Below are positions 3,501 through 53,872 of a stretch of 64,000 nt of DNA, in pieces. This DNA is from Candidatus Poribacteria bacterium. Lineage in GTDB: Bacteria; Poribacteria; WGA-4E; WGA-3G. Position 1 is the stretch's first letter. Each line of letters begins with the position of its first letter. The position numbers and the translations under genes are program-made. The notes beneath the pieces are model-generated. The model was not told the origin of the DNA. It was given only the letters and a program-made list of their open reading frames with translations, and did not search any database. The stretch is taken from contig JAPOQK010000023.1 of assembly GCA_026710795.1 (NCBI GenBank), positions 1,525 through 65,524 on the forward strand, in the 5' to 3' direction.

Positions 3501-3661
3501 GAAGTTTCTATATTTGATTGATTGGAATTATTATCGTTGCAAAGGGCAGGAATTGTGTTTTGGTAAAAGAGGATAATACATAAAACAACAATTGGAATAC
3601 GACTCACAATACTAACAACAAAATTGGATTTCTGAGTATGTTTTTTTCCATGATTACACAT
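524..3661 (-). CDS. bamA: Outer membrane protein assembly factor BamA (Omp85 family), 1045 aa
   Basis: N-terminal signal/TM, long POTRA-like region, C-terminal beta-barrel with aromatic-rich terminal motif (...FYFRIGSTF) typical of Omp85. Sits directly downstream of the tamB-like gene. Confidence 0.8.
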   Translation of the reverse strand: MCNHGKKHTQKSNFVVSIVSRIPIVVLCIILFYQNTIPALCNDNNSNQSNIETSQQNAIVKIDFVIDAIPVTETELLSKLLRLTQISIGSPFSRNAVQQSVTSIYSEQTYAQIDVYTTFVPEGVILKYELAKMMHIQKVNIVGDVSDELRRVIDSSIRLKAGNKYIPYIANDDVNTIKAICADNGYFDVSVEIDTIPEKGNITYQIKIGQPTYVTEFIIIGNSSIFTEHIKEVCYLNVDQIYRKSTVNEDIRSIQELYRKKYYPSTVIKSSFKHNSGVLIYEIIEGKQLLLDFVDENGKPILNESFLRQFLSILDIETVVPERDQLREKIEQLINDRSRWVDIIRTHFEAKGYHGTQVKSRTLTNSPLHIEFTVKHGIRYFVSTLEFEGNEAFSDKELLREMESKPVNFFSRHIRKRYFSNIALERDINRLEILYEKAGYRNVEITSKIIKHNDNKQRDGEVSINLFIFEPTKEMINRCQFLGNRVLNDVTLYNALPSKPPEPNASLVQKKYENAILKAYQERGYIYAKVEKTEYLHKVDTPVFQISGDYSGNLNSGTLPKKLRDAFSEHSLSLSGTLTSIGSEWSIQDVDGNARYTLDQEKEHLSVYEHGVLQYDIVEGDQIIFGKFNFAGDTGVIPRVLYREVANLPGTLFTTEKLDLVVENLYNTRVFEPGIQTKFDFPTSEVNNTVNISDNDKVVEAFPEPKVNDVTIRLQKRLPRTYGASVGYSTSHGPRGTIAFSHFNLFKRNIRFHLRGRWGTRGYIYDTTLTEPWLIGRTSGSLQFLGRKLEEDDDVRALQGSFTLSRKLLGSHRLNLQYNYRYLKDTTEKVSSVIPLISNPSTTVSSLSFLWRQDNRIPSINPISGMLNEVSVEYAGGVLGGESGFIKFVSDTEYHRQLPVRGFVLSNALRFGYTPGLQLNNNDEAELISFERFWAGGSTTVRGYEERGLGPEDSTGKHRGNVQFIFNTEMRFPIYNPFHGVLFFDTGNVWDSVGDIEYKWIPSSVGMGLRLNFGPLIFGVDYAVPLITLDDVFTVPFYFRIGSTF

Positions 3662-3663
3662 TA

Positions 3664-6600: not shown

Positions 6601-9600
6601 AATATTTCCATTGATAACTAATTCCTGTATATTTACAGAATTCTTATTGATAGTAGTAAGAGCTTGGAATTGTTTCAATGTAATCGGTTCAGTCAACATA
6701 CCCAACTTTATGGGATAATTATCAATCGTATGAGCATTGAGATTAATGTTAGTTTCAAGAAAACTACCATTCAAGTTCACTGTTACATCCTGAACACCTT
6801 GAAGGAAAGTTGTATCTCCCAACATAAATTGGTCCAATGCATCTTCAGATAGAGCGTTTTTTACAATATTTGAAAACTGTGCCAAATCAAGATAATCGGA
6901 TATTATATCTATGTTTAGTCTTGACCTATAAAGGTCATTTTGATTGACAGAAACAGTACCACCTACCTGTACAGAATTATCCATTAAATTCAATTTAAAT
7001 GGTTTTATTGACAGAACGTGATTTTGATATGTCAATTGTCCATTTGTATTACTAAAACTAATATCCCCCAATTTAGTATCAACAACTAACGATGGTATTC
7101 TCCAACCTAATTCTACATTAGGATCACTTATCGTACCTGTCCATTTTAATTGATAATAACCACTTCCGGAAATTGGTATATCAAACACTTCACCTAAATG
7201 TGCAAGAACAATATTGTCATCTGAATTTGCTGAGATATCTACCTTCTCATTTTTCAAATTCAAACTACCGTTGAGATTAACGAATGACGTTTTTTCTCCA
7301 ACTACGGTCAGTGAACTATCAGCAATCGTAAGGATGTCATTCTCTAACAACATAAATATAGGCTTTGGATTTGTAAAGTTGACGGTTTTATACTGTAGTT
7401 GAGTATTGTTTATAGTTATTTCAACATCATAAGGATGAATAGGTTTATTGTTAGGATCCACAGAATTTGGCGTTAAATCAGTAAGTGTTCCTTCAACTTT
7501 AACGTTACCATCTGCGGAACCAGAAATGGTTTCAAGCCTTTTATCAAAAATACGGAGAATAGGTGTAACTGATATTCCATCACACTGCAATGTGAATTGA
7601 TAAGGATTATCTTTGATGTTGAAGATTTTTCCGTCAATCCTACCTGTGCCTTCAAATGCTTCACCTGTAAATTTAAAATAATCCAATTCTTCAGTATGTT
7701 TATTTCCCTCTACGAGGGTAGCAAACATAGTAGCATCACCGAGAGGATTTCCATCAAATGTCAAGTCAGAAAAGTCAAAGTCGACTTTAAAAACAAAATC
7801 TTCATTCAATTTCTGATACGAATCAACATGGATATCCAATTTTCCATCAAGCGGAAAGTCAGTTATGTCAGCAGCAAGGGCAACTTCTGCTAATCGAATA
7901 GGTTTGCCAACTTCATTCTTAAGACTAAAATTGAATGCCCCCTCATTCGTAACATGAGCATTAAAAATAACCAGTTGATTCCGTGTAGTAATTTCAAAAT
8001 TTGGAATAGTCAGGGAATAGTCGTCTATTTCAAGAGACATCATCACTGGATCTATATTTATCTCCCATGCATTACCAGATTCAATTGAAAATAGACCTTT
8101 ACCGTCGAGATGATCAATAAGGAACCCATATAAATTTAGTTCACCATTTATCACACCTTGTATAGGAAGTTCTTGCTGAAAAAAGAGTCTATTATAGTCA
8201 GAATCCAGAACAAGTGGGTCTGAAACTATGTTAAATGTTGCGGGTAGTTTATCCGCTAATTTGACATTCCCTTCAATAGAAACCTTTGTTTCTCCAACTT
8301 CACCTTTTTTAACAAGATGTGCATTTTCTATATATACAATTTTATCTGAATACCGAAAATACCCTGTTAATACGCCAAGTGAGATTGGTGTCATAAAGTC
8401 ACCATAAGAAGTTTCAGGGATTTCAACATATCCAGTAGCAGTCCAATCTTTCTTGATCTGTGCGGTAATACTTCCTATTCCTACGAAGGGAACAGTGTTT
8501 ACAATATCGCATATTTTGCCAAAATCAAAATTGTCTATTCTTAATTCAACCTGTTCCAATGAACCATTCATTTCAACAATTGCATCATCCAACATGCCAT
8601 TTACAGTTATTGTTGATCCTATGTTCTCTTCCAAATTAATGTTACAATTCAGAGATGAATCTTTCAATAAAACAGGTTCTGTCTGTCCATTTGCCTGTAA
8701 AGATGATTCTGATAGTTCAATATTACTTTCCAGATGAAATTCTCCTTCTGCGCCACCATTAATCTGTGCTGTTCCGTTCAATATGCCAGATTTAACCTGC
8801 GGTGCATCTTTAGGAATTTCTACTAACATTGATAAAAGAGAATTGAGTTCCATATCTGAAATTTGTAAATTACTTTCATATTTGATCGGATATTTGAAGA
8901 ATTGCTGTAGTCTATCAAAAAGATTACCTTGTATGCTACTATCTAATAAGACTTTTCCATTACCAGACAATGTGCCACCAGCGATATGCATATTGATTTT
9001 TTCTAAAATTACATTCGGTTCACTGTCTAAATTCAAAATAGTATTGATATTTAAATCAGTTATTTCAATCTTCCTTGATTTAAACTCAGAATTATCTGTT
9101 GATGCACCTATGTTGTGTTGGACAGTCAGTGCTTCTGAAGTGACGGTTAGATTACCTTGTAAAGTAGAATCTGTTCCGCTAAAATCCAATGTTACCTTAC
9201 CTACACCTGCAAGTTGAGTTTGTTCATCCAAAAAATATTGCACATCTGCGGCATCAAATGTTATTTGTAAACCTGCATTCCACAGTCCAGTACTCCAGTT
9301 TCTTTTATATTGATTAACAACTATTAAGGAGTTTCCAATTTGTAATTGAAGTGGTTGAAGTTCCTCACTATTCGTAGCTAGTGCAAACTTCACACCATGA
9401 ATCCGTTCAATTGGCATCTCCACACCATTAAGTGTGATGTTACCTTTACCTATAGAGAAACTACCTGAATGATCCCATTTATCTAACTTACCACTTAACT
9501 TAACCTCTATTTCTGGAATACTCACTTCAAATTGCTTTTCCTTATCAACAAAGTATATCTCACCACCATTGACTTTAAAGTTGGATATTGCAAACGCGAA

Positions 9601-10038
9601 ATCATTATCAGATTCTGTTGCAGAATCTGATTCAGGTTTCTGTAACAAATGCATTAGGTTTACCTGTCCATCCGACTGACGAACAACGACAACTTTTGGA
9701 CCTTCAATTTCAAACTCAGTAACAAGGAATTTGCGTCTAAGTAAACCAAGAATGTTGTATCTAAGAATTATCTGTTCTGTTGAGAGGATAGGTAGTTCTG
9801 TGGATTTTGTATCTACTATAGAAAAGTCATCAACGACAACACCTGTGAGGACATTTCCCCGCAATTTTTGTATTTTTACTTCATAATCTTCGTTAATTTG
9901 GTCTTCTAATGCTGTTATTAGACGTTCTCTGATATAATTTTCAAGAAAATAATCTGAACTTATAAAAAAATATCCTCCAATTCCACATAGCAAAATGAAG
10001 AGTGATATTGAAATAAACAGGATTTTGCGTCGTGTCAT
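3664..10038 (-). CDS. Giant TamB/AsmA-family translocation-and-assembly-module protein (2124 aa) with N-terminal membrane anchor
   Basis: N-terminal TM helix (ILFISISLFILLCGIGGYFFI), very long beta-rich repetitive body, C-terminal DUF490-like region. Stop is 2 nt before bamA, so the two are probably co-transcribed. Confidence 0.65.
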   Translation of the reverse strand: MTRRKILFISISLFILLCGIGGYFFISSDYFLENYIRERLITALEDQINEDYEVKIQKLRGNVLTGVVVDDFSIVDTKSTELPILSTEQIILRYNILGLLRRKFLVTEFEIEGPKVVVVRQSDGQVNLMHLLQKPESDSATESDNDFAFAISNFKVNGGEIYFVDKEKQFEVSIPEIEVKLSGKLDKWDHSGSFSIGKGNITLNGVEMPIERIHGVKFALATNSEELQPLQLQIGNSLIVVNQYKRNWSTGLWNAGLQITFDAADVQYFLDEQTQLAGVGKVTLDFSGTDSTLQGNLTVTSEALTVQHNIGASTDNSEFKSRKIEITDLNINTILNLDSEPNVILEKINMHIAGGTLSGNGKVLLDSSIQGNLFDRLQQFFKYPIKYESNLQISDMELNSLLSMLVEIPKDAPQVKSGILNGTAQINGGAEGEFHLESNIELSESSLQANGQTEPVLLKDSSLNCNINLEENIGSTITVNGMLDDAIVEMNGSLEQVELRIDNFDFGKICDIVNTVPFVGIGSITAQIKKDWTATGYVEIPETSYGDFMTPISLGVLTGYFRYSDKIVYIENAHLVKKGEVGETKVSIEGNVKLADKLPATFNIVSDPLVLDSDYNRLFFQQELPIQGVINGELNLYGFLIDHLDGKGLFSIESGNAWEINIDPVMMSLEIDDYSLTIPNFEITTRNQLVIFNAHVTNEGAFNFSLKNEVGKPIRLAEVALAADITDFPLDGKLDIHVDSYQKLNEDFVFKVDFDFSDLTFDGNPLGDATMFATLVEGNKHTEELDYFKFTGEAFEGTGRIDGKIFNIKDNPYQFTLQCDGISVTPILRIFDKRLETISGSADGNVKVEGTLTDLTPNSVDPNNKPIHPYDVEITINNTQLQYKTVNFTNPKPIFMLLENDILTIADSSLTVVGEKTSFVNLNGSLNLKNEKVDISANSDDNIVLAHLGEVFDIPISGSGYYQLKWTGTISDPNVELGWRIPSLVVDTKLGDISFSNTNGQLTYQNHVLSIKPFKLNLMDNSVQVGGTVSVNQNDLYRSRLNIDIISDYLDLAQFSNIVKNALSEDALDQFMLGDTTFLQGVQDVTVNLNGSFLETNINLNAHTIDNYPIKLGMLTEPITLKQFQALTTINKNSVNIQELVINGNIGQGSVQITGETSISTQERDDIMYDFDVSFQKLKVDDFVRFISQDQSFLTGTLGGSVTLKGKGIKSELISAKCKIDEMDLYTQDFHIFNNSRIDFNLENNNVNSHFPIQITSPIIETAVDARIGGTLTSPTVEVLQQGKIKHSQQNEIDMPLELHSNIQYTEKQIKLEIKLTDNENDLTLAGIIPFDMTLSDKKFVERFIDVPTNITLSGNELPLTFFPWLNNVISEVEGVSDINLALTGTLPKLHLQGNVYVHAPHLRNKNIPQIFKNVIIQIQAGKHNNGEDVIELTEFQFDLDEGEVSLLPFQHSQLILDGLTPKRLEINGLKLKEYPLGSLLQQNISSNLIQDIEGTVNATLEKLIIPFESFFENGDRIPLPKISKLLTFDAVSQNSYADLRIDNFSCGFTALGQLFRFVNPSSIPINLNNGEFTVSELKLQNTVANKADESILPMVISSYGRWNMRGKMLLNFKLTNFDLSICDPLFSEANLDTYKLRGLVSTGINITGTYAEPNITVSFEGDNLSLNQAKIDEFNGAINYNSGSKQWLIEESNPLLLKSGGNQLTCSGYIPYLISFSNMQVEPVMDPMEVKCTLTMDELGMLSDIEPTFESVQGDGSVTATIFGTLDEPQLTGIGEFNALSFSIKGSPISISETDVQIELTESQLQIVSIFGELNDGNFFASGYLHSDWFSFNYLDLNVSMDNCSFVEPGQYNATLSTGDNNLHLYGNLDESIQSNLTISGDIIIHSGDYEQNWESVQEWFSGATVSQVELAVGNTILNNLQLDVGIEIPDNIRFISSLGGSTVIKINGSGRLTGLIQEPIFVGDIYLLEGRISTVTQIFEIVPGSSIRNHNPREFNPDLNIILRLPNPIRGVLLEDGGTTDVNVRLTITGTLQNNKPTYISELLNSSTAETLTEAEVLALLLPGNSISRSIGGITFTVSSGFDPEERHIIAIYPLPNNMSIKVEGDEKGDFGVDIQLLERRF

Positions 10039-10064
10039 CGTATCATATCCGTTTTGTCTGAAAC

Positions 10065-10886
10065 TTATGAATAAAATTCGTGATGAGCTAAATTAACTAT
10101 ATCGTTAATGAAATCGGTTTCTCTTAGTGGTAGGATAGATTCAATTTCAGATTGTGTTTTATCTGTATGTTGAAGCCAAAGCAGATATTCAATATTTCCA
10201 ATGTCTTGATATACTGGTGAAAATGTCAACCCCAAGGCAATTGTAGAGCAGTTTTCATAAGCAAAATCAATTAGATTATTCAATATTTGCTTATGGATAT
10301 CTGGATCATCAACAATTCCACCTTTTTTTATGTTAGTACGACCTGCCTCAAACTGCGGTTTAACTAATGCGATTACTTCCGATACCTGCAACTTTTCTAT
10401 GACCACAGGTAATATTTTGCATAAGGAGATGAAAGAGACATCAATAACTGCAATATCAAGTGGGTGAGAGAACAACTGTTTGTCAATATAACGAATATTT
10501 GTCCTGTCAATGACTTTCACACGTGGACTATTACGTAACTTCCATGCAATTTGACCATAACCCACATCAACAGCATAAATAAAACCAGCACCATGTTGCA
10601 GCAAACAATCAGTAAAACCACCAGTCGATGCACCAACATCAATCGCGACTCTATTCTGAATAATAATATTAAAGGTATTAATAGCCTTTTCCAGTTTCAA
10701 TCCACCACGACTGACATATTTGGGTGGCAGTTCTATCTCAATTTCAGAGTCAAGCGAGATACGTTGTCCCGGTTTAAGTTGTGAATTATTGTTTACTTTG
10801 ACTGATCCTGCTAAAATTAGTCGTTTTGCTTGTTGACGACTTTCAACTAAACCTTGTTGTACTAAAACTACATCTAACCTTTCCAT
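10065..10886 (-). CDS. tlyA: TlyA-family rRNA 2'-O-methyltransferase (hemolysin A-like), S4 domain + FtsJ-like MTase
   Basis: N-terminal S4 RNA-binding motif (RLDVVLVQQGLVESRQQAKRLILAGSVKVN) and SAM MTase motif (AIDVGASTGGFTDCLLQHGA). Confidence 0.85.
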   Translation of the reverse strand: MERLDVVLVQQGLVESRQQAKRLILAGSVKVNNNSQLKPGQRISLDSEIEIELPPKYVSRGGLKLEKAINTFNIIIQNRVAIDVGASTGGFTDCLLQHGAGFIYAVDVGYGQIAWKLRNSPRVKVIDRTNIRYIDKQLFSHPLDIAVIDVSFISLCKILPVVIEKLQVSEVIALVKPQFEAGRTNIKKGGIVDDPDIHKQILNNLIDFAYENCSTIALGLTFSPVYQDIGNIEYLLWLQHTDKTQSEIESILPLRETDFINDIVNLAHHEFYS

Positions 10887-21602: not shown

Positions 21603-21665
21603 GCAGGTACACTTGTGTATTCTGAGAATAATTCGAAGTATACCTGCTACTGTTTATATTATACC
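21603..21665. terminator. Bidirectional intrinsic terminator (nested hairpin flanked by U-tracts on both strands)
   Basis: AGCAGGTAcAC…(tattcTGAgaata)…GTATACCTGCT followed by ACTGTTTATATTAT on + and preceded by TAAAAATA (U-run on -). Lies 11 nt after the stop of the UGSC gene. Confidence 0.5.
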
Positions 21666-21722
21666 AATTCTAATATTTATTGTCCCATTACTGGATTCAA
21701 CCATTGTTATTGATTGGAAATC

Positions 21723-21812
21723 TTTCTTCTGTAGGATCGACCCGGTGAATGCCTAAATGGCATTCATACCGTTGATTTGCTGGTCGCGACCGGGAGGTCG
21801 CTCCTACAAGTA
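21723..21812. repeat. MITE-like intergenic repeat element with imperfect terminal inverted repeats (cTGTAGGAtCGACC … GGtCGCTCCTACAAG) and internal hairpin GAATGCC-taaat-GGCATTC
   Basis: Termini are inverted copies of each other. The internal GAATGCC…GGCATTCATACCGTTGATTT core recurs at 53000..53100. The terminal motif cTTCgTAGG…CCTACAAG recurs at 26687..26775. Also contains the perfect palindrome GGTCGCGACC. Confidence 0.45.
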
Positions 21813-21850
21813 GTCCTCAGCAAATGGCACTTTATTTATTAGAAATGATA

Positions 21851-24439
21851 TTATTTACGAGTTTGTTTGAAAAGAAATTGACCTTCCTTGAACTCAACTT
21901 CCACATCATCACCCTCATGGAAGTTACCTTCAAGTATATCAATCGCCAATGGATTGAGAATATCTCGTTGCAGTGTGCGACGAAGTGGACGCGCACCATA
22001 CACTGGATCAAAACCACGATTTACTAATTCCTCTGTCGCTGAATTAGTTAACGTAAGAGTCATATCCATTTCAGCAAATCGAACACTCAGTTTGGATAGT
22101 TCAAGTGTTACAATCTGTTTCAATTCCTCAATACCGAGACGGTCAAAAATAATCATATCATCCACTCTGTTCAGAAATTCAGGTGGGAAATGGGATTGTA
22201 AAGCATCCATTACCTTTCGACGAATTTCTTCAGTGGCGAGATTTGATTCACTTATCCATTGACTACCAATATTAGATGTCATGATGACAACCGTATTCTT
22301 AAAGTCAACAGTACGTCCTTGTCCATCAGTCATTCTACCGTCATCAAGCATTTGGAGTAACACATTAAATACTTCTGGATGTGCTTTCTCTACCTCGTCA
22401 AGAAGAATAACACAGTACGGGTGTCTCCTGACTGCTTCAGTCAGTTGTCCTCCTTCATCAAATCCAACATAACCCGGAGGTGCACCGATAAGTCTGGAAA
22501 CGGTATGTTTCTCCATGTATTCACTCATATCAATACGGACTATGGCGTTAACATCATCAAACAGGAATTCTGCAAGCGATTTTGCCAGATGTGTTTTCCC
22601 AACACCCGTAGGACCCATAAATAGGAATGAACCAAGTGGACGTTCTGGATCACCGAGACCTACACGTGAACGACGTATAGCGTTTGAGACTGCAGAAACC
22701 GCTTCATCCTGTCCAATTACCTGTTCACATAAACGTTCTTCCATGTGAAGTAGTTTCTGTGTTTCACCTTCCATAAGTCGATATACTGGAATACCTGTCC
22801 ATTTTGCGACTATTTCAGCAATATCCTCCGCGCTGACACGTTCTCTCAACATGTGAGTGCCGTTGCTGACTTCTTCTAACGCATCACGCAGAGAATTCAG
22901 TTGTGCTTCAAGTTCAGGTATTTTACCATATTCAAGTTCTGATGCTTTCGCTAAGTCACCACTACGTTTTGCTTGTTCGGATTCTGTGCGGAGCACTTCA
23001 ACCTGTTCCATCAATTCGCGTATCTGTTTTAGGTTCGTTTTCTCATTTTTCCAATTTGCTTTGAGTACATTTGCTTTCTCTTGTAATTCAGCAAGATCAA
23101 GATTCAATTTGTCTAAACGTTGTTTTGAGGCATCATCGTCCTCTTTTTCCAAAGCCTGTTGCTCAATATGAAGCTGGATTATTCGTCGTTCTACTTCGTC
23201 AATTACCTCAGGAACACTATCAATTTCAATGCGTAAACGAGATGCTGCTTCGTCAACTAAATCTACTGCTTTATCCGGTAGAAAACGATCCGAAATATAA
23301 CGTTTTGATAGAGTTGCTGCAGAGACAATGGCATTGTCCTGAATTTGAACACCATGATGTGTTTCATACTTTTCCTTCAAACCACGTAGTATAGCAATAG
23401 TATCTTCTACTGACGGTTCGTGGACCTGGACAGGTTGGAATCTGCGTTCAAGTGCTGCATCTTTCTCAATATGTTTTCGGTATTCATCCAAAGTTGTGGC
23501 ACCGATACACCGCAATTCTCCGCGTGCCAACGCTGGTTTTAACATATTAGATGCATCCACTGATCCTTCAGCAGCACCTGCCCCTACGATGGTATGAAGT
23601 TCGTCAATAAAAAGAACTACCTCACCTTCTGCTTGTTCAACATCAGCGAGAACGGCTTTGAGTCTATCCTCAAACTCGCCGCGATATTTACTTCCTGCAA
23701 CAAGTGCTCCCAAATCAAGCGCAATAAGTCGTTTCTCGCGTAGGCTTTCTGGCACATCACCATCTGCAATCCTCTGAGCTAATCCCTCAACAATTGCTGT
23801 TTTACCGACACCAGGTTCTCCAATCAGCACAGGATTGTTTTTTCGTCTACGTGATAGAACTTGCATTACACGACGTATTTCATCATCCCTACCAATAACT
23901 GGATCAAGTTTGCCGGACATTGCCTCTTGAGTGAGTTCTCTACCAAATCTTGTGAGTGCTTGGTATTTATCTTCAGGATTCTGATCTGTTACACGTTGTG
24001 TTCCGCGTATGTCAATAAGTGCCTTTAGGATATTATCCTTCGTTACTCCTACCTCGCATAGTATTTGTCCCACATCGCTCTGTTTTGAATCCGAACATGC
24101 TATCAAAAGATGTTCTGTGCTTACATATTCATCTTTCAGTGTGTTTGCCTCTTTAAGTGCCGCTTCAAGAATTGATTGTAATGAACCTGAAACGCGAAGG
24201 TCTGAACTGTCTCCTTGAACTTTTGGTGATTTCTGTATTTTCTCCTCAAGGGCAGTTACTATTCCTTGAATATCTGCTCCTAATTTCTGCAAAATTGGGG
24301 TTACAATCCCATCCGTTTGTCTGATGAGTGATAGCATAAGATGCTCAACACTCATTTCTGGATTTTGATATTCACTTGCTAAAACTTGTGCTGTTTGTAG
24401 TGCTTCTTGTGCTTTAATTGTAAATCTGTCTAATCTCAT
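21851..24439 (-). CDS. clpB: ATP-dependent chaperone ClpB
   Basis: 862 aa; Clp N-domain repeats, two AAA+ modules ([15 protein letters not shown]…; [15 protein letters not shown]…), long coiled-coil M-domain between them. Confidence 0.95.
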
Positions 24440-24692: not shown

Positions 24693-25520
24693 CTATCGTA
24701 ACCTATCTGATTTAAGTGTACCCCATGTCGTAGTAAATTTGTCTTGTGGTTCAACACTTGTCGCAGCTTGAATTACATCAGCAAATTCAGAGAAATCATC
24801 ATCATCAAAAGCTGAGTTATATACTAACACTTCATCAATTGCGCCACCGAAGTAATGTATGTCTGTTCCACCACCATCGTCATCGTGGAATACAGCATTT
24901 TGATTAGTGTGTGCGATACCAGTATTATCACCATGTGCGAAAAGTTGTCCACCGGGTTCACTTGCAATCTTTACACCATCAAGCCACATCTCAAATTTGT
25001 CATCTTCAACAGCATTTGATCCATCTCTTATCACAAGAGCTACGTGATACCATCTATCAGACTCTACTTCTGCAGAGGGCCACGCACCTGTCCAATTGTA
25101 CTCTGCCCGGTTCCACGCACCAACATAGACCTTTCCCTCATACACATTTATCACAAAACCACGTGTTCTTCCACCTTCATCAAAAATCGTCTGTTTATGA
25201 TCAGAGATACTAACATCAGTGCATTTAAAATATGTAGCAATCGTTCTGTTCATGAAAGGACCGCCAGTATTCAAGCCATTTGAATCAGGTAGTTTGACAC
25301 CATCATCTACACCATCAAATAGTAGAGCCTTTCCAACAATTCCGTCAACAACTTCAGGTTCACCAGCAAATGTACCGTTGACATCATGTCCTGAAGTATC
25401 AGCGGCATCTCCTTCATCAAAAGTCCAAATTGCTCTAACAGTTGCTTCGTCCCTTGCTGCAAAAGCCGCAAGTGTGAAAATCATTATGAAAATGCATAAA
25501 ATTGAGACATTCTTTATCAT
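24693..25520 (-). CDS. Secreted LamG/concanavalin-A-like lectin-fold protein (paralog 1)
   Basis: N-terminal signal peptide (MIKNVSILCIFIMIFTLAAFAA). Motifs GGPF…RT(I/V)A…F(K/N)C…Q(T/V)IF(D/E)EGGRTRG…GKVY(V/G)GAWNRAEY…RWYHVA(L/V)VIRD shared with the adjacent paralog. Jellyroll/pentraxin-like pattern. Confidence 0.5.
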   Translation of the reverse strand: MIKNVSILCIFIMIFTLAAFAARDEATVRAIWTFDEGDAADTSGHDVNGTFAGEPEVVDGIVGKALLFDGVDDGVKLPDSNGLNTGGPFMNRTIATYFKCTDVSISDHKQTIFDEGGRTRGFVINVYEGKVYVGAWNRAEYNWTGAWPSAEVESDRWYHVALVIRDGSNAVEDDKFEMWLDGVKIASEPGGQLFAHGDNTGIAHTNQNAVFHDDDGGGTDIHYFGGAIDEVLVYNSAFDDDDFSEFADVIQAATSVEPQDKFTTTWGTLKSDRLR

Positions 25521-25587: not shown

Positions 25588-26433
25588 TCATTGATTTTTC
25601 AGTTTTGCCCATGTAGTTGTGAATTTACCTTGTGGTTCAACATTTAGCGGTATTGTCAATTCAAGTATATCCGCTTTAACAAAGGATGAACTGTAGACAA
25701 TCATTTCATCAATCATTCCACTGAACCAATTGATGTTAGTACCATTACCCCCATCATCGTGAAAAACGGCATTTTGATTAACAAAACCAATACCGTTATT
25801 ATCACCATGTGCATGAAGTTGACCACCATCCGTTGAATCAATGAGTTTACCATCCAACCACATTTCAAATTTATCTTTTTCCACTTTTCCAGCAGCATCT
25901 CGTATGACTACAGCAACGTGGTACCATCTATCTGAATTTATGTCCGCTGATATCCATTCTCCTTGCCAATGGTATTCTGCTCTATTCCAAGCTCCACCAT
26001 ATACTTTACCATCAAATACATAGATTGCTAATCCACGCGTTCTTCCACCTTCTTCAAATATAACTTGGTGTTGATCTTTGTCAACATTGTCACAGTTAAA
26101 AAAAGCTGCGACAGTTCGCTTGGGAAATGGTCCTCCAGTATTGATTCTGGGTGAATCGGGAATCTGTATTCCGTCACTACTCCCATTAAATCTCAAGGCA
26201 TCATTTACTATCCCTTTTACGGATTCAGGTTTACCGACAATTGTTCCATTTAAAGATTGATTAGAACTATCCTTAGCAGTTCCATCGTCAAATGTCCAGA
26301 TTCCTGCAACGGTTCCTTCATCACGTTGTGCTTCCACAGGTGTGAAAATAAAAAATGACAACGTAAAAATTATGATAAAAGTAGGAAAGATAGGATTTTG
26401 TAAAACGTTGCAATTTTTCAATACTTGAAACAT
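25588..26433 (-). CDS. Secreted LamG/concanavalin-A-like lectin-fold protein (paralog 2)
   Basis: ~50% identical to 24693..25520 over the whole length, including TTTWG(T/A)LK near the C-terminus. Signal/TM at N-terminus. Confidence 0.5.
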   Translation of the reverse strand: MFQVLKNCNVLQNPIFPTFIIIFTLSFFIFTPVEAQRDEGTVAGIWTFDDGTAKDSSNQSLNGTIVGKPESVKGIVNDALRFNGSSDGIQIPDSPRINTGGPFPKRTVAAFFNCDNVDKDQHQVIFEEGGRTRGLAIYVFDGKVYGGAWNRAEYHWQGEWISADINSDRWYHVAVVIRDAAGKVEKDKFEMWLDGKLIDSTDGGQLHAHGDNNGIGFVNQNAVFHDDGGNGTNINWFSGMIDEMIVYSSSFVKADILELTIPLNVEPQGKFTTTWAKLKNQ

Positions 26434-26686
26434 TTAGTTGCCTCCTATTTATCATTGTATCATTAATATAACTTGTTATAAGTTAGATGCTTTTAAATTT
26501 CTATAAATTAGATTATATATAATATACAAAAACATTATTTTTTTGTCAATATATGACACGATATTTCCAAGATTAAATTATTCTTAACTTTTTGGAATAT
26601 TAAACAACAAGCGTAAATACATTAGAATATATTCGTTGGTTGGGTTTGACTATGCTCAACTCATAACTGACATTTTAAGTTCTTCG

Positions 26687-26775
26687 TAGGTCGGAGCGAG
26701 TTTGCGACCTCCGACACGTATCATTTCATTAGGGTTCACATGTCGGAACGAGTTTGCGACCTCCGACCTACAAGA
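26687..26775. repeat. MITE-like palindromic repeat element (TIRs cTTCGTAGGTCGGAG / CTCCGACCTACAAGag) with internal 19-nt direct repeat CGAGTTTGCGACCTCCGAC x2
   Basis: Terminal motifs match those of the element at 21723..21812. Internal sequence is different but also strongly self-complementary. Confidence 0.45.
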
Positions 26776-29644: not shown

Positions 29645-29737
29645 GAACAATCTGATTTGGTCTGTTTTCTTGTGTTTTCTGTCAGAACCCCAAATTTAAT
29701 GAAAATTCAATAAAATATCTATAGTCAATATATTAAT

Positions 29738-29766
29738 TTGACATATACAAAAGAATACTATATAAT
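29738..29766 (+). promoter_or_regulatory. Perfect consensus sigma70-type promoter TTGACA-N17-TATAAT (copy A of a duplicated module)
   Basis: TTGACA 29738..29743, 17-nt spacer, TATAAT 29761..29766, with A/T-rich upstream. The same module, including the flanks aatTTGACA…caaaaaga(a)tacTATATAATtaaca..tgtttagaata, recurs at 53177..53205. Confidence 0.5.
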
Positions 29767-29883
29767 TAACACGTGTTTAGAATAAAGATGTATCGGGTTC
29801 TATGTTCTTTCAAAAGGTGAAACAATTTTCGTAGATAAGATTGAATAAAACAGATAAAAAGGAATTTAAAAAAACACGAAAAT

Positions 29884-29947
29884 CGCGTCACTTTCCTTGT
29901 CCAGACTGGATTCTAAACGTCACAGTGACGTGCAAAACGTCACATTT
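29884..29947 (+). promoter_or_regulatory. Conserved 64-nt palindrome-rich block (copy A), possible operator cluster or RNA element in the 5' leader
   Basis: CGCGTCACtTTCCTTGTCCaGACTGGATTCTAAACGTCACAGTGACGTGcAAAACGTCACATTT. Nearly identical to 53417..53481. Contains the perfect palindrome ACGTCAC-A-GTGACGT plus two further (C)GTCAC half-sites and TCCAG-A-CTGGA. Confidence 0.35.
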
Positions 29948-30205
29948 AAAACAGGCAAAATACGGAAGATTATAAAGAAAAAATGTTAGGACTTTGAATT
30001 GGAATGGATAGATGTTTATTGGATTCACCTTTTATTATCTGAACCAGGATTTCCCAAATCCTGCGTGAAAAACCTAAAACTAAATGATCCTGCCTATTAT
30101 TGTTATTGATTGAATTTCGTATTTCTAATAAAATACAACAGTGGATTATTCCTTTTAAAGCTATAAATTTGATTGTTATTATAAATAAGCATAAGGTATT
30201 AGAAT

Positions 30206-37295: not shown

Positions 37296-38645
37296 ATGAG
37301 TATTACACAATTCACATTGGAAGAGGTACGCTGCTTCGGAGAACGACAAACTCTTGAAATTCGACCTTTGACCTTTTTAGTCGGAGAAAACAGTACTGGC
37401 AAAACTACTGCCCTCGCTTGTTTCCATGTGTTGGTTAACTATTTGCGTGGAAGAGGAGTAGATTTCAATGAAAAGCCTTCAAATCCTCATCCTTATTCAT
37501 TGGGAACCTTTAAGGATATCGTCAGAAACAGTAATAATAAAGAAAAAGCCTTTAAACTTGGTTTTACTTCTAAATACGCTAACGATGATATAGAATGGAC
37601 AGTTGAATTTATTGAAAGGCAGGAAGCAGTTGAACCTAGTATCAGTTTAGTATCCATTGTATTTCCAAATGGTGAAGTCGTTTTTAAAATCAAAGACTCA
37701 TTGGAAAAACCCTTTGGTATGGAATCCTTTGATAGTAATAGACACCAATATCATTTAGTTTGTAACTCTAACATAATTTCTCAATTTCCACTGAGTCATA
37801 TCTTGGATAATTTGGATCATCTACCAATAAATTTATTTAAAGAAGACTTACAAAGTGCAATGGCACTTGTAAAATATTTGAAGAGTCTTACTAATCCTAT
37901 AGAAGTCATGGCTGAACCATGGGATTTGTGGTACAATCTTTCTATATTAAGTACATCACCAATACGTTCCCGTCCTGAACGCACCTACGATCCAATGAGA
38001 GAGTTTAACGATCCTGAAGGAAGCGATATTCCCCTGTTGTTAATGCGATTAGATGCAGCACAAAAAAATGAATGGGAAGGAATAAAAAAACACCTAGTAA
38101 AATTTGGTAAGAGTTCAGGCTTATTTCAGAATATAAGAATCAAAAAACTAGGACATTCACTGGGTGATCCATTCCAATTGCAATTCAAAGTCAGAGGTCC
38201 TTCTTCTAATATCATGGATGTGGGTTACGGTGTAAGTCAAATTTTACCTGTTTTGGTTCAAGTATTATATCCTAGTATTTCTCGTAACAATAAACGCACT
38301 TATTCAATGCCGTCCTACGCTTTACTACAACAACCTGAAGTGCACCTACACCCAAAAGCACAAGCAGAATTTTCTTCTCTGTTAGCAAAATTGGCAAACC
38401 AGGGTAACCAGTCATTCATAGTTGAAACACACAGTGATTATATGATTGATCGGGCACGGATTGAAATCAGAAATGGTAACATCAAACCTGAAGATGTATC
38501 GCTAATCTACTTTGAACCGAAAGGAAATATTGTCAAAGTACATAATATAGGTTTTGATGAAATGGCGAATCTAACTAATGTGCCAAATCATTATAGACAG
38601 TTTTTCCTTAATGAATCTAAACGACTCATGGGATTTGAGGGTTAA
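37296..38645 (+). CDS. ABC-type AAA family ATPase (AAA_15/AAA_21-like; DUF3696-type C-terminal region)
   Basis: 449 aa. Walker A (LVGENSTGKTT) near the N-terminus. Long insert. Walker B/D-loop LLQQPEVHLHP and H-loop ETHSD near the C-terminus, typical of the OLD/AbiL/Septu-like ATPase clade. Confidence 0.7.
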   Translation: MSITQFTLEEVRCFGERQTLEIRPLTFLVGENSTGKTTALACFHVLVNYLRGRGVDFNEKPSNPHPYSLGTFKDIVRNSNNKEKAFKLGFTSKYANDDIEWTVEFIERQEAVEPSISLVSIVFPNGEVVFKIKDSLEKPFGMESFDSNRHQYHLVCNSNIISQFPLSHILDNLDHLPINLFKEDLQSAMALVKYLKSLTNPIEVMAEPWDLWYNLSILSTSPIRSRPERTYDPMREFNDPEGSDIPLLLMRLDAAQKNEWEGIKKHLVKFGKSSGLFQNIRIKKLGHSLGDPFQLQFKVRGPSSNIMDVGYGVSQILPVLVQVLYPSISRNNKRTYSMPSYALLQQPEVHLHPKAQAEFSSLLAKLANQGNQSFIVETHSDYMIDRARIEIRNGNIKPEDVSLIYFEPKGNIVKVHNIGFDEMANLTNVPNHYRQFFLNESKRLMGFEG

Positions 38646-38646
38646 T

Positions 38647-39075
38647 ATGTGTGCGATTTTGGATACAAATTCTTTCCATAAATTCAAAGACAGCACAGAT
38701 GAAGATATGGAAGAGGTATGGAGGTGGTTGGAAAGAAGAAACGGTAAAATAGTCTACTCAAATATCCCTAAATTTGAAGAGGAATGGTTTAAAGGTGGAA
38801 TGCATCCTTTGAGAGACCAACTTCTACGCTCTGGACATCTCAAGTTGGTATCTAAGGGTGTCCAAGAAAAGTCAGATGAACTTATAGGAAACATTAAATC
38901 AGACGATAATCATATTATTGCGTTGGCAATAATTGCTGGTGTAAAAATTCTCATTACCAACCGTAAGGGAGACAAAGATTTAATCACAGATTTTAAAAGT
39001 AGCGAATTTGTTAATGGGAAGGTATATACAACAAAAAAGCATGCTCACTTACTAAAGAAAGACACTTGTCCTTAA
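38647..39075 (+). CDS. Small PIN-like domain protein translationally coupled to the upstream ATPase
   Basis: ATG at 38647 lies 1 nt after the ATPase stop (TAAtATG). MCAILDTNSF… (PIN strand 1 with Asp), acidic stretch DEDMEE…, then DNHIIALAIIAGVKILITNRKGDKDLITDF resembles the PIN hhT-N…DF motif. The track's 38578 start gives an unlikely N-terminal extension overlapping the ATPase. Confidence 0.45.
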   Translation: MCAILDTNSFHKFKDSTDEDMEEVWRWLERRNGKIVYSNIPKFEEEWFKGGMHPLRDQLLRSGHLKLVSKGVQEKSDELIGNIKSDDNHIIALAIIAGVKILITNRKGDKDLITDFKSSEFVNGKVYTTKKHAHLLKKDTCP

Positions 39076-51496: not shown

Positions 51497-52489
51497 CTAT
51501 GGTTCTATAATTTTTGTGTCAACAGTATGGTAACCTAAAATATCTACAGGTGTCTTCTTTAGTCCAATTTCGTCTTGTGTGATTCCGCTGTTTGTTGTTG
51601 CTCTTGCATATATTTCAACAGGTCCAGTTTTCTTTGGTATCTGCCAGTCCCATTTCCAGAGCACCCATGCTAATGGAGTGTCCTTTGCCCATATCTCTGT
51701 TTCATTCCAAGTTTGTCCGTAATCAACGCTGACTTCAACTTTTTTGATTCCTTCATGATGTCCAGCGTCAAATGCAGCACCGCTTACAGTATAATTTTGC
51801 CCTGCGAGTAATTCTTCATCAAGACTGGGTGTGCCAATGACGGTAGCGAGTTTTACATTTGCAACAGGGTCCCATCCACGTTTCTCCCAATAACTTTGAT
51901 GTTCTGCAGCTAATTGTATATTTACAATCCATTTTGGGTTCTTAGTACCGTAATGCCCCGGATTAAGCAATCGTACAGGAAACCCATGTTCTTTTGGCAA
52001 GGGTTCTCCGTTCATTTCATACGCAAGAATGGTGTCTTCATGCATGGCATCTTCTAATGGTATTGCGGTGTGATATCCATCTGCACATTGAAACACAACA
52101 ACTTTTGCCTTATCTTTTACGCCAGCCTTCTTAATCAGTTCCTGTAACCGTACCCCTTTCCACTCAGCATTTCCCATCTGCTCTGTGCCGATAGGATCAC
52201 CAATGCACTTCAATGTCCGCATTGTAACAACAGAATCCATTGCAGTGATTTCTTCGTATAGAAATGAAGTAATTGGTTTCTCAGCCAAACCGGTAATAAC
52301 CAAACGCCAGTTGTTCACATCAATTTTTGCCGGGTCTCCAATTTGGAGAATGTAGAATTCATCATTAGGTGTTTTAAATGTGCGTGGTTTCAACAAACGA
52401 ACATTGTCTTCTTGTGCTTGTAATTTTATAGGTAATACCATCCCTGCAGCACTCATCGCGCTCAATTTTATGAAATTTCTTCGTTTCAT
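51497..52489 (-). CDS. Tat-exported molybdopterin-dependent oxidoreductase, sulfite-oxidase family (YedY/MsrP-like)
   Basis: Twin-arginine signal MKRRNFIKLSAMSAAGMVLP. Mo-domain pattern (…CIGDPIG…, …HGFPVRLLNPGHYG…). Confidence 0.75.
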   Translation of the reverse strand: MKRRNFIKLSAMSAAGMVLPIKLQAQEDNVRLLKPRTFKTPNDEFYILQIGDPAKIDVNNWRLVITGLAEKPITSFLYEEITAMDSVVTMRTLKCIGDPIGTEQMGNAEWKGVRLQELIKKAGVKDKAKVVVFQCADGYHTAIPLEDAMHEDTILAYEMNGEPLPKEHGFPVRLLNPGHYGTKNPKWIVNIQLAAEHQSYWEKRGWDPVANVKLATVIGTPSLDEELLAGQNYTVSGAAFDAGHHEGIKKVEVSVDYGQTWNETEIWAKDTPLAWVLWKWDWQIPKKTGPVEIYARATTNSGITQDEIGLKKTPVDILGYHTVDTKIIEP

Positions 52490-52701
52490 TTTACCTCCTC
52501 TTTATGCGATTCGTGCTTAGGATTCTTTCTACGCATACGCATTGTTATCTTTATTACACCTCTTACCATAATTGCAGTTCCGAAGGAAAGGAACAGTGGT
52601 AATCCCCACTTCCAATGGTATATATAATATGCTATAAAACAGATAACCATCAGAAATATGAATATATTTAATAATGCTCTATTGTCATACCATTTTTGCA
52701 T
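52486..52701 (-). CDS. Small single-pass membrane protein, overlapping by 4 nt with (and presumably co-translated with) the Mo-oxidoreductase
   Basis: 71 aa, one TM helix, basic C-terminus (RMRRKNPKHESHKEEVK). Confidence 0.35.
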   Translation of the reverse strand: MQKWYDNRALLNIFIFLMVICFIAYYIYHWKWGLPLFLSFGTAIMVRGVIKITMRMRRKNPKHESHKEEVK

Positions 52702-52865
52702 TTCTATTACAATTCAATATATATTTTTTTGGGTTCTAAATAGTTAATTCTACTTTAAATAATATCATTTATGTGATAGAAATTCAACTCAATTATTGCC
52801 ATTGCAGGGTTATTTAGTTTTCGGTTTTTCGCACAGGATTTGTTACATATGTGGATAATGGTATT

Positions 52866-53122
52866 TGTTTATTGTCTGAACCAGGATTTACAGGATTATG
52901 AGCTGGTGTATATATTCCGTTTCAAAGGATGTAAGGTTACCTTATGCAAAGGGATATAGGAATATCAAACTCTTATCCTGCTAATCCTATAATCCCGGGG
53001 AATGCCAAAAGGCATTCATACCCGACAAATGCCATACGCGCATTTGGCGTTGATTTGGGGGAAATCCAACAGGCGTTCATACCGTTGATTTCTTGATTTG
53101 GTAAATCCTGGTTCAGACAAAC
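52866..53122. repeat. Composite MITE-like element bounded by inverted repeats TGTCTGAACCAGGATTTAC / GGTAAATCCTGGTTCAGACA, containing GAATGCC-aaaa-GGCATTC and related hairpins
   Basis: Terminal 19-20 nt are inverted copies. Interior contains two copies of the GGC(A/G)TTCATACC…GTTGATTT core shared with 21752..21780. A third copy of the TCTGAACCAGGATTT unit lies at 30036..30050. Confidence 0.45.
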
Positions 53123-53176
53123 ACAGTTTAATATAAAATACCAATATATATCCAATAAAACATTTCACTTTTTAAT

Positions 53177-53205
53177 TTGACACCCACAAAAAGATACTAT
53201 ATAAT
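53177..53205 (+). promoter_or_regulatory. Perfect consensus sigma70-type promoter TTGACA-N17-TATAAT (copy B of the duplicated module)
   Basis: TTGACA 53177..53182, 17-nt spacer, TATAAT 53200..53205. Flanking ~55 nt conserved with 29735..29795. Confidence 0.5.
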
Positions 53206-53416
53206 TAACATTTGTTTAGAATATAGAATTATATCTGTGACACGAATTGAGATACGTTAGAAGGAAGTATAAACACAAATTCACCTATTGTGTAATGTTT
53301 GATTTTTGATTCTAAGGGACTGTATATGGGTTTTCTAAGTTTCATGTCTTGCAAATTATGAAGGTAGGTCAAGGCAAGTAAAAAAACCAAAAAGGCGCAA
53401 AAAAAAAAGCGAAATT

Positions 53417-53481
53417 CGCGTCACATTCCTTGTCCTGACTGGATTCTAAACGTCACAGTGACGTGTCAAAACGTCACATTT
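53417..53481 (+). promoter_or_regulatory. Conserved palindrome-rich 65-nt block (copy B)
   Basis: CGCGTCACaTTCCTTGTCCtGACTGGATTCTAAACGTCACAGTGACGTGtcAAAACGTCACATTT. Matches copy A at 29884..29947 in about 62 of 65 positions. Lies ~390 nt upstream of the DUF1501 gene. Confidence 0.35.
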
Positions 53482-53872
53482 GAATGCACATATCGGTAAT
53501 CAACATAACACTAATTTGACAGATATAGGTTTGCTTCGCTGTACAGACTACGATATAACTATTAATAACACCAATCTACAGATTATTCTTAAAACATAGT
53601 AAACTTGGTGTGCAGTTTTTTACTTGTATTTGATTTATATGTATGGTATTATATAGTCAATGTCCATCATTATATGAAGAATAGTATTGTGTGTAGAATC
53701 CAATTAAATATTTAGTGAGTATTTACGGTATCAAGGTAATTGTATTTACAACGTCAACTAATTATATCTACCCCGCAGGTGTAGGCACTACAACAGACTT
53801 TCTAAGCGGGACAATATTAAGGAGAGGCATTCGTTAGCCAATAGGCTTCCGTTTAATTGCTATAAACTGAAA

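What the first reader, a model, noticed from the sequence alone, without database searches (positions are those of the whole stretch)
53173..53481. Copy B of the promoter-plus-palindrome module, embedded next to a composite MITE-like element upstream of the DUF1501 gene
Same module as 29735..29947, here located immediately downstream of a hairpin-rich element (52866..53122) that is flanked by 19-nt inverted repeats. The arrangement (TIR-element, then outward-facing strong promoter, then conserved block) suggests the promoter-bearing module may itself be mobile or have been recruited repeatedly. A third TCTGAACCAGGATTT unit lies just downstream of copy A (30036..30050) but in a different order, indicating recombination among these modules.
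Basis: seen in the sequence. Interest (0 to 1): 0.5.

Follow-up and report, generated by a model that had tools for sequence, protein, structure and literature searches.

The report
Truncated copy of Poribacteria non-coding repeat
The 'promoter-plus-palindrome module' is real, but it is a cut-down copy of a larger, previously undescribed 0.8-kb non-coding repeat of sponge-symbiont Poribacteria that carries its own very strong promoter and a heavily base-paired, RNA-like core.

Summary
Copies A (29720-29950) and B (53146-53481) share two conserved segments: a perfect TTGACA-17-TATAAT promoter, and an ~85-nt block of CGTCAC motifs. A MITE with 20-nt perfect inverted repeats lies next to B.

The module is not a unit in its own right. 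Four full-length relatives were found in three Poribacteria assemblies and one unnamed metagenome contig. In these, promoter and block are the two ends of a ~780-nt element. Its order is promoter, a ~620-nt core closed by a ~37-bp long-range helix, a variable tail, an A-run plus small hairpin, and the CGTCAC array.

A and B are independent internal deletions that lost the core. At least three B-type copies with the same deletion exist.

The element is non-coding and matches no Rfam family, plasmid or phage. Its flanks differ at every locus. It is co-oriented with the downstream gene in all 5 scorable cases, and it is absent from the oppC-aroQ spacer of related species.

Most likely it is a dispersed, non-autonomous repeat carrying an RNA gene. 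The truncated window copies mainly keep a strong promoter pointing at DUF1501 and aroQ.

Still unproven: which strand is transcribed, whether the core is a functional RNA, and how the element spreads. Interest is moderate.

The parts
53134..53176 (+). Copy B: conserved AT-rich segment upstream of the -35 (CAATATATATCCAATAA...). This is the left end of the repeat unit.
   Evidence: It aligns with copies C, D, E and F upstream of the promoter. nhmmer places window 53134-53264 on profile positions 10-140.
53177..53205 (+). Copy B promoter: TTGACA, 17-nt spacer, TATAAT (12 of 12). The inferred start of transcription is near 53212.
   Evidence: The same 12/12 promoter is present in A, C and E. The start site is inferred, not measured.
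53212..53264 (+). Copy B: remnant of the first ~55 nt of the full-length core, i.e. part of the 5' arm of the long-range closing helix.
   Evidence: nhmmer; alignment; helix defined.
53265..53329 (+). Copy B: junction segment left by the internal deletion. It is shared by the B-type copies B2 (L002) and B3 (L004).
53330..53398 (+). Copy B: variable 3' tail, homologous to the tail of full-length copies.
   Evidence: nhmmer places window 53330-53482 on profile positions 709-862.
53399..53419 (.). A-run (10 A, 53399-53408) followed by the small hairpin GCGAAATTCGC (53409-53419), then a U/C-rich stretch. It resembles a bidirectional terminator: read on the minus strand it is a hairpin followed by U10.
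   Evidence: The stem sequence differs in A, B, C, D and E but a stem is kept. The scanner flags the minus strand in A and the plus strand in E.
53419..53481 (.). CGTCAC array. Motifs lie at 53419-53424, 53451-53456, 53458-53463 (inverted) and 53472-53477. The 15-nt palindrome ACGTCACAGTGACGT is at 53450-53464. This is the right end of the repeat unit.
   Evidence: Similarity among all copies ends just after GTCACA(A)TTT.
52872..53120 (.). MITE-like element with 20-nt perfect terminal inverted repeats (TTGTCTGAACCAGGATTTAC). Its interior is built from GC-rich REP-like hairpins and varies between assemblies.
   Evidence: I25.
29720..29950 (+). Copy A, an independent and larger internal deletion of the same element. 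Promoter 29738-29766, A-run 29868-29874, hairpin 29873-29889, palindrome 29916-29931.
   Evidence: nhmmer places it on profile positions 40-113 plus 768-861.
29982..30062 (+). Solo left end of the MITE downstream of copy A. A 66-nt left-flank segment is followed by TCTGAACCAGGATTT, which folds back on AAATCCTG.
   Evidence: It is 92-94% identical to the sequence left of the MITE in L002 and L003.

Best explanation
Copy B is an internally deleted member of a dispersed, non-coding repeat family found so far in Candidatus Poribacteria MAGs and in unnamed metagenome contigs. Copy A is a second, independent deletion of the same element.

The full-length unit is about 780 nt and reads in this order:
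- an AT-rich upstream segment and a perfect sigma-70 promoter;
- a ~620-nt heavily base-paired core, whose first ~40 nt pair with nt ~585-621;
- a variable tail;
- an A-run, a small hairpin and a U/C-rich stretch, which together look like a bidirectional terminator;
- an array of four CGTCAC motifs that includes a palindrome.

Shown here: the family exists, its architecture, that it does not code for protein, that A and B are deletion derivatives, that copies sit in unrelated contexts, and that base pairing is conserved.

Inferred: the unit behaves like a non-autonomous mobile or duplicative DNA element. Its two ends would act in cis, which is why they survive in the deleted copies, and its cargo would be a promoter-driven structured RNA read from the plus strand.

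In copies A and B the core is gone and the leftover RNA is no longer unusually structured. What they can still do is fire a strong promoter toward aroQ and DUF1501, damped only by the weak terminator-like hairpin. They can also serve as homology for recombination between copies.
For: Full-length copies:
- C: L006, contig Ga0209544_1000007.
- D: L032, Poribacteria MAG VYFM01000149, and E: L033, Poribacteria MAG JAJEAG010000015.
- F: L035.

Deletion mapping: B covers profile positions 10-140 plus 709-862. A covers 40-113 plus 768-861.

Non-coding:
- Mismatches show no 3-nt periodicity.
- 1- and 2-nt indels shift the frame.
- ORFs are not conserved between copies.

Structure:
- z-scores are -3.8 and -4.0 for the two strands, with 0 of 20 shuffles folding as well.
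- 12 compensatory pairs appear among three sequences.
- On four sequences with a Watson-Crick-only consensus, 5 pairs change on both sides, against 2.1 +/- 1.0 in shuffles (3 of 500). The covariation score is 0.079 against 0.059 (0 of 500). Slid controls give 0-1.

Strand: deviations from Watson-Crick pairs are G-U 11 against A-C 4, and the promoter reads this strand.

Uneven conservation: the 5' half of the core is 92-93% identical, the 3' half about 80%, and the tail about 59%.

Dispersal:
- The flanking genes differ at every locus.
- The downstream gene is co-oriented in A, B, C, E and L044, which is 5 of 5.
- The element is absent from the orthologous spacer in L036 and L040, about 315 nt against 561 nt, with no nhmmer hit.
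- B, B2 and B3 share one deletion but differ at about 17 sites.

Mini copies are not significantly structured: z -1.15 and -1.41.
Against: - Only four full-length copies were obtained, two of them 92% identical to each other, so the covariation evidence is thin.
- Both strands fold equally well. The same pairing could equally reflect DNA hairpins or correlated inverted repeats.
- No transposase or reverse transcriptase sits consistently next to the element. No target-site duplication or terminal inverted repeats of the unit were found.
- The flank swapping between samples could be a k=141 assembly artefact rather than real recombination.
- Copy F shows no block in the 190 nt left before its contig ends, so the block may not be obligatory.
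- There is no expression evidence.
Confidence: 0.6

Rival explanations
1. The full-length unit is simply a lineage-specific structured RNA gene present in a few copies. It is not mobile. A and B are decaying pseudogene relics of old duplications, and both ends survive only because internal deletions keep ends by definition.
For: There is a strong promoter, a closed structured core and uneven conservation with a 92-93% identical 5' domain. No mobility gene or target duplication was found.
Against: - The flanks differ at every locus and in every genome.
- The element is absent from the orthologous site in relatives.
- At least three copies carry the same deletion.
- It is tightly associated with a MITE.
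Confidence: 0.22
2. The conserved block is a small RNA gene of about 85-95 nt on the minus strand, ending at the hairpin plus U-run. The plus-strand promoter would then make an antisense partner.
For: - A hairpin followed by 7-10 U on the minus strand is present in all copies.
- The G-U wobbles in the stems of A and C are valid only on the minus strand (sequence).
- The minus-strand fold is a few kcal/mol more stable.
- Minus-strand promoter-like sites lie next to the block in A and E.
Against: - Those promoters lie outside the conserved unit, and none is found in B or C.
- Similarity stops at the would-be 5' end of the RNA.
- Stems are only 4-6 bp. In D and E the wobble favours the plus strand, and the scanner calls a plus-strand terminator in E.
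- z-scores are only about -1.5 on either strand.
Confidence: 0.1
3. The CGTCAC array is an operator or binding-site cluster for a DNA-binding protein such as a regulator, recombinase or replication initiator. The module would then be a regulatory cassette placed in front of genes.
For: There are four CGTCAC motifs, arranged as two direct, one inverted and one direct, spaced 33 and 20-21 nt apart. They are conserved in A-E while the sequence between them varies. The array always lies upstream of a co-oriented gene.
Against: The downstream genes are functionally unrelated: aroQ, DUF1501, a sulfatase, an enolase-family enzyme and a LolA-like protein. No candidate binding protein was identified. 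This reading is compatible with the best explanation, where the array would be the cis-acting end of the element, rather than exclusive of it.
Confidence: 0.08
4. A and B arose by a local segmental duplication within this 64-kb stretch.
For: Only two copies lie in the window, in direct orientation and 23.5 kb apart.
Against: Related copies occur in other contigs and other genomes. Nothing flanking the two copies is duplicated. The two copies carry different deletions.
Confidence: 0.01

Closest known systems
Putative mobile promoters (Matus-Garcia, Nijveen and van Passel 2012, PMC3488235; Nijveen et al. 2012, PMC3575422)
   Same: Near-identical promoter-bearing intergenic segments lie upstream of unrelated genes, within one genome and across related genomes.
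   Different: Here the promoter is one end of a defined ~780-nt unit with a structured core and a specific 3' end. It primarily drives the unit's own transcript, not the neighbouring gene.
Promoter-carrying MITEs such as Neisseria Correia elements, and modular repeats such as pneumococcal BOX (from my own knowledge)
   Same: These are small non-coding dispersed repeats with internal length variants. They can supply promoters or terminators to neighbours and form hairpins in RNA.
   Different: The unit itself has no terminal inverted repeats and no target duplication was detected. The full-length form is much larger and has a 620-nt structured core. A true TIR MITE sits beside it as a separate element.
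REP / BIME / REPIN repeats (REPIN population paper, PMC8049555)
   Same: The neighbouring GC-rich hairpins (GTAGG... palindromes at 21655-21853, 26683-26767 and inside the MITE) look like REP mosaics. They vary in number and orientation between strains.
   Different: The promoter-core-block unit is AT-rich, asymmetric and far longer than a REP doublet. No RAYT gene was seen.
Large structured bacterial non-coding RNAs: OLE, GOLLD, ROOL, HEARO (IscB omega-RNA). Rfam families; description from my own knowledge.
   Same: Size class (more than 600 nt), no coding potential, extensive conserved pairing with a long-range closing helix, and patchy lineage-restricted distribution. Some ride on mobile DNA.
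   Different: No match to any of these models at E up to 10. There is no associated protein gene. Truncated copies are common.
IS200/IS605-derived palindrome-associated elements and their omega/reRNAs (from my own knowledge)
   Same: These are non-autonomous derivatives that keep both ends, have a sub-terminal palindrome at the right end, and lack terminal inverted repeats and target duplications. A TnpB gene lies 1.7 kb from copy E.
   Different: No left-end hairpin or conserved target tetranucleotide was found. TnpB is not adjacent, and none was seen near the other copies. The RNA core is far larger than known omega-RNAs.

Membership tests
MITE (applied to the 52872-53120 element) | Terminal inverted repeats | tested here: met
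   20-nt perfect inverted repeat (I25).
MITE (applied to the 52872-53120 element) | Short, non-coding and multi-copy | tested here: met
   It is 249 nt long. The same inverted repeats occur in L032, L033, L043 and next to copy A. A 50-aa ORF called inside it in L044 and L045 has no Pfam family on record.
MITE (applied to the 52872-53120 element) | Target-site duplication | tested here: inconclusive
   The flanks ...GTTTA| and |ACACA show no obvious direct repeat.
Putative mobile promoter | A highly similar promoter region upstream of non-homologous genes | tested here: met
   The promoter is 84-94% identical upstream of aroQ, DUF1501, an MR_MLE enzyme, a LolA-like gene and a sulfatase.
Putative mobile promoter | Promoter activity and control of the downstream gene | not testable with these tools
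   Only a 12/12 consensus match is available.
Large structured non-coding RNA | No protein-coding potential | tested here: met
   Frameshifting indels, no codon periodicity and no conserved ORF.
Large structured non-coding RNA | Conserved secondary structure supported by covariation | tested here: inconclusive
   5 both-sided changes against 2.1 +/- 1.0 in shuffles, score exceeded by 0 of 500 shuffles, slid controls 0-1, z about -3.8. This rests on only 4 sequences, and both strands fold alike.
Large structured non-coding RNA | Transcribed as a discrete RNA with a defined strand and ends | not testable with these tools
   A promoter is present. G-U against A-C is 11 to 4, favouring the plus strand. 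There are no expression data.
Known Rfam family | Covariance-model match | tested here: not met
   No hit at gathering thresholds in the window. Only chance-level hits at E up to 10 on A, B, C and E.
IS200/IS605-type non-autonomous element | Sub-terminal hairpins at both ends and insertion next to a fixed short target | tested here: not met
   A right-end palindrome is present, but no left-end hairpin. The left flanks differ (..AAAAT..ATAC..AAAA..ACAC).
Type I toxin-antitoxin | A conserved small hydrophobic ORF with an overlapping antisense RNA | tested here: not met
   The tiny ORFs in A and B (10-11 aa) are unrelated to each other. The 49-73-aa ORFs in C-F are hydrophilic and broken by frameshifts.

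The most novel reading that the evidence does not exclude
The full-length unit encodes a new class of large (~620-720 nt) structured RNA restricted to sponge-symbiont Poribacteria. The RNA is expressed from a consensus promoter and carried on a self-propagating, protein-less cassette. The CGTCAC-array end would be recognised in trans by an unidentified recombinase or transposase. The window's copies A and B would be its MITE-like deletion derivatives, which now act as portable strong promoters.
Probability: 0.3. Interest if true: 0.75.

Novelty: new variant of a known kind. Interest (0 to 1): 0.55.

Why it matters
If the core is a real RNA, it adds a new large non-coding RNA class, and in an uncultivated symbiont phylum. 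Few such classes are known in bacteria, and their functions have been hard to find. This one comes with a natural set of deletion variants.

If the unit is mobile without any protein gene, its CGTCAC end points to an unknown trans-acting enzyme.

There are also practical consequences:
- The unit and its partner MITE break or mis-join metagenome assemblies of Poribacteria at these loci.
- The strong promoters may rewire expression of neighbouring genes, here aroQ-DegT and DUF1501.

Tried and rejected
- **Rfam.** Gathering thresholds on the whole window, and E up to 10 on four regions, gave nothing relevant.
- **tRNA and tmRNA.** None in the window.
- **First genome-contig scan.** The block 20-mer gave 0 hits.
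- **Viral contigs.** The 20 hits to the 17-mer palindrome have unrelated flanks and are chance matches. A conserved core 23-mer gave 0 hits.
- **Plasmids and phages.** blastn in distant mode found no match.
- **Clostridia hit L034.** Only the 25-nt pattern matches. There is no profile hit, so it is chance.
- **Long-range pairing GTTTAGAAT / ATTCTAAAC.** It is present in A, B and C but not kept in D and E, so I dropped it.
- **Small-peptide or toxin-antitoxin reading.** Rejected, because the ORFs are not conserved.
- **Group II intron idea** (5' GUGUU, a GAGCCGU motif). No Rfam intron hit, and the motif is in the wrong place.
- **Finding more copies through spurious ORFs.** One hit, P0001, led to L035. 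A concatenated six-frame query found nothing.
- **Literature.** Nothing on Poribacteria non-coding RNAs.
- **Strand assignment by folding energy.** No difference between strands.
- **One script timed out** and was rerun in simpler form.

Full report

Yes. Copies A and B share two conserved segments separated by an unrelated middle of about 50 nt in A and about 145 nt in B.
- The promoter segment is 29733-29793 against 53172-53232, at 84%.
- The block is 29846-29937 against 53379-53470, at 83%. By blastn it is 84 nt at 91.7%, E 4e-26.

Both copies contain a perfect TTGACA-17-TATAAT. The palindrome AACGTCACAGTGACGT occurs nowhere else in the window, with 0.38 matches expected by chance.

The neighbouring hairpin-rich element has 20-nt perfect inverted repeats at 52872-52891 and 53101-53120. 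TCTGAACCAGGATTT occurs exactly three times, and the third is at 30038-30052, downstream of A.

**2. Setting.**

The window is 37.6% G+C. It belongs to an uncultivated Candidatus Poribacteria, a sponge-symbiont phylum. Two things show this:
- The closest named proteins are Poribacteria DegT aminotransferases.
- The only named genomes carrying the promoter-leader pattern in the genome collection are two Poribacteria MAGs.

Copy A lies between an OppC-type permease gene and aroQ. Copy B lies between a divergent molybdopterin oxidoreductase gene and a DUF1501 gene.

**3. What the module really is.**

One JGI metagenome contig (L006, copy C) contains the block. About 1 kb upstream of it, on the same strand, lies the promoter segment.

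A genome-collection scan with the promoter-leader pattern found two Poribacteria MAG contigs: L032 (copy D) and L033 (copy E). In both, promoter and block are again the two ends of one conserved stretch.

A spurious ORF inside this stretch led to a fourth full-length copy, L035 (copy F).

After removing a REP-like insertion in C and a 90-nt insertion in D, the unit is about 775 nt from the inferred start site to the end of the block. Pairwise identity is 81-92%.

A profile built from C, D and E places copy B on positions 10-140 plus 709-862, and copy A on positions 40-113 plus 768-861. A and B are therefore independent internal deletions of the same element. No further copy lies in the window.

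**4. Anatomy of the full-length unit.**

- **(a) Left end.** An AT-rich segment (CAATATATATCCAATAA...) and a 12/12 promoter.
- **(b) Core.** The core is about 620 nt. Its first ~40 nt pair with nt ~585-621 in a ~37-bp helix that encloses many local hairpins.
- **(c) Tail.** A poorly conserved tail, about 59% identical.
- **(d) Terminator-like hairpin.**
  - An A-run of 7-10 is followed by a 4-6-bp hairpin whose sequence differs between copies while the stem is kept. A U/C-rich stretch follows.
  - On the minus strand this reads as hairpin plus U-run, and the scanner flags it in A.
  - On the plus strand the scanner also flags it in E.
  - I therefore read it as a weak bidirectional terminator.
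- **(e) Right end.** Four CGTCAC motifs, one of them inverted, form a 15-nt palindrome with its neighbour. All similarity stops after GTCACA(A)TTT.

**5. Coding or not.**

The unit does not code for protein.
- Mismatches between C and E show no 3-nt periodicity.
- 1- and 2-nt indels shift the reading frame.
- The 49-73-aa ORFs differ in start, frame and stop between copies.

**6. Structure.**

The core folds better than shuffled versions of itself, with z of -3.8 on the plus strand and -4.0 on the minus strand. In each case 0 of 20 shuffles folded as well.

RNAalifold finds 12 pairs with compensatory changes among three sequences.

On four sequences, using a consensus predicted with Watson-Crick pairs only:
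- 97.8% of cells pair.
- Five pairs change on both sides, against 2.1 +/- 1.0 in shuffles (3 of 500).
- The covariation score is exceeded by 0 of 500 shuffles.
- Slid controls give 0-1.

This supports conserved pairing, but four sequences are too few for proof. The same signal would also arise from DNA hairpins or co-evolving inverted repeats.

Folding energy does not separate the strands. Two weaker clues favour the promoter strand:
- Single-sequence departures from Watson-Crick pairs are G-U 11 times and A-C 4 times.
- A perfect promoter sits exactly at the 5' end of the closing helix.

Conservation is uneven. The 5' half of the core is 92-93% identical, the 3' half about 80%, and the block 88%. 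This argues for constraint rather than neutral decay.

The truncated RNAs that A and B could make are not unusually structured, with z of -1.15 and -1.41.

**7. Is it known?**

No Rfam family matches at gathering score or at E up to 10. Nothing similar was found in plasmids, phages or viral contigs. A literature search on Poribacteria non-coding RNA found nothing relevant.

**8. Dispersal.**

The flanking genes differ at every locus:

| Copy | Upstream | Downstream |
|---|---|---|
| A | oppC | aroQ |
| B | oxidoreductase | DUF1501 |
| C | a gene I read by eye as katG-like (not family-scanned) | MR_MLE enzyme |
| D | ankyrin and MORN genes | contig end |
| E | a Lar_N/DUF362-like gene | LolA-like gene |
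| L044 | oxidoreductase | sulfatase |

In all five cases where it can be scored, the downstream gene has the same orientation as the unit.

In two related species (DegT 84-87% identical) the oppC-aroQ spacer is about 315 nt rather than 561 nt. It gives no profile hit. Copy A was therefore gained in the window's lineage, or lost in the other two.

B, B2 (L002) and B3 (L004) have the same deletion and the same length. They differ at about 17 positions in their first 180 nt. So at least three B-type copies exist, and the deleted form itself has multiplied.

**9. The MITE and structural variation.**

L043, however, shows the same MITE with unrelated DNA to its right. The MITE is therefore a separate element that is often, but not always, adjacent.

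Its interior is a mosaic of GC-rich REP-like hairpins and differs between assemblies.

Contigs from different samples join the DUF1501 side, or the oxidoreductase side, to different neighbours. The switch points fall inside the MITE or the module, and several contigs end there. This is either real recombination between dispersed copies or repeat-induced mis-joining by a k=141 assembler. I could not decide between the two.

**10. Most likely explanation, and what is inferred.**

Shown: the family, its architecture, that it is non-coding, the deletion origin of A and B, the unrelated contexts, and the conserved pairing.

Inferred: the unit is a non-autonomous, DNA-level repeat. Its two ends are needed in cis, and its cargo is a promoter-driven structured RNA. 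Copies A and B have lost the cargo. They remain as strong promoters pointing at aroQ and DUF1501, probably with read-through past a weak hairpin, and as substrates for recombination.

The rivals and my weights are in the Rival explanations section:
- an ordinary non-mobile RNA gene with decaying duplicates;
- a minus-strand small RNA over the block;
- a protein-binding array or regulatory cassette;
- a local segmental duplication.

The duplication is excluded. The minus-strand small RNA is weakened by three points:
- Promoter-like sites next to the block occur only in A and E.
- Those sites lie outside the conserved unit.
- The stem wobbles point to different strands in different copies.

**11. 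Verdict.**

The interpretation that the module is a reused, possibly mobile promoter is partly right. The important correction is that the module is a remnant of a larger, undescribed, structured non-coding element of Poribacteria. Interest is moderate. It would rise if transcription and a genome-wide census confirm a new large RNA class on a protein-less mobile cassette.

Noticed in passing
window 21655-21853; L006 10278-10472: A ~200-nt repeat is shared with L006 at 79% overall. Its central palindromic segment (GTAGGAGCGACC...GGTCGCTCCTAC) is 96% identical but inverted relative to its flanks between the two copies. This suggests an invertible or bi-orientable REP-like hairpin.
   Followed up: partly
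window 26683-26767: Two tandem REP-like units (GTAGGTCGGAGCGAGTTTGCGACCTCCGAC), spaced 52 nt start to start. Related perfect palindromes occur in L006 at 10000-10088 and inside the L002 and L003 MITEs.
   Followed up: partly
window 52490-53120 and L002, L003, L004, L043, L044: Assemblies from different samples join the DUF1501 side and the oxidoreductase side to different neighbours, and several contigs end here. This is either a recombination hot spot or a repeat-induced assembly breakpoint.
   Followed up: partly
window 24693-25520 and 25588-26433 (minus strand): Two tandem paralogous Laminin_G_3 genes, with about 69-72% DNA identity over up to 481 nt.
   Followed up: no
window 37296-38645 and 38578-39075: An AAA_15/AAA_21 ATPase gene with a small partner ORF. 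The pair is present in some relatives (L038) and absent in others (L036), so it may be a variable defence-type island.
   Followed up: no
window 52486-52701 (minus strand): A 71-aa ORF with no Pfam hit is called directly upstream of the oxidoreductase gene and overlaps its start by 4 nt. The truly non-coding spacer may therefore begin near 52702.
   Followed up: no
L033 28-1104 (minus strand): An IS605 OrfB/TnpB gene lies 1.7 kb upstream of full-length copy E, separated from it by another gene. No such gene was seen near the other copies.
   Followed up: partly
L036 471-2250 and L040 420-2209; L038 1054-5826: In relatives, the region a few kb upstream of the oppC-aroQ locus (L036, L040) or directly upstream of aroQ (L038) carries restriction-modification genes: EcoRV-type endonuclease with a D12 methyltransferase, and an Eco57I-like methylase with a PLD/helicase. 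None of these is in the window, so this neighbourhood is variable.
   Followed up: no
window 524-10038 (minus strand): Two very large adjacent ORFs of 1045 and 2124 aa. I did not examine them.
   Followed up: no
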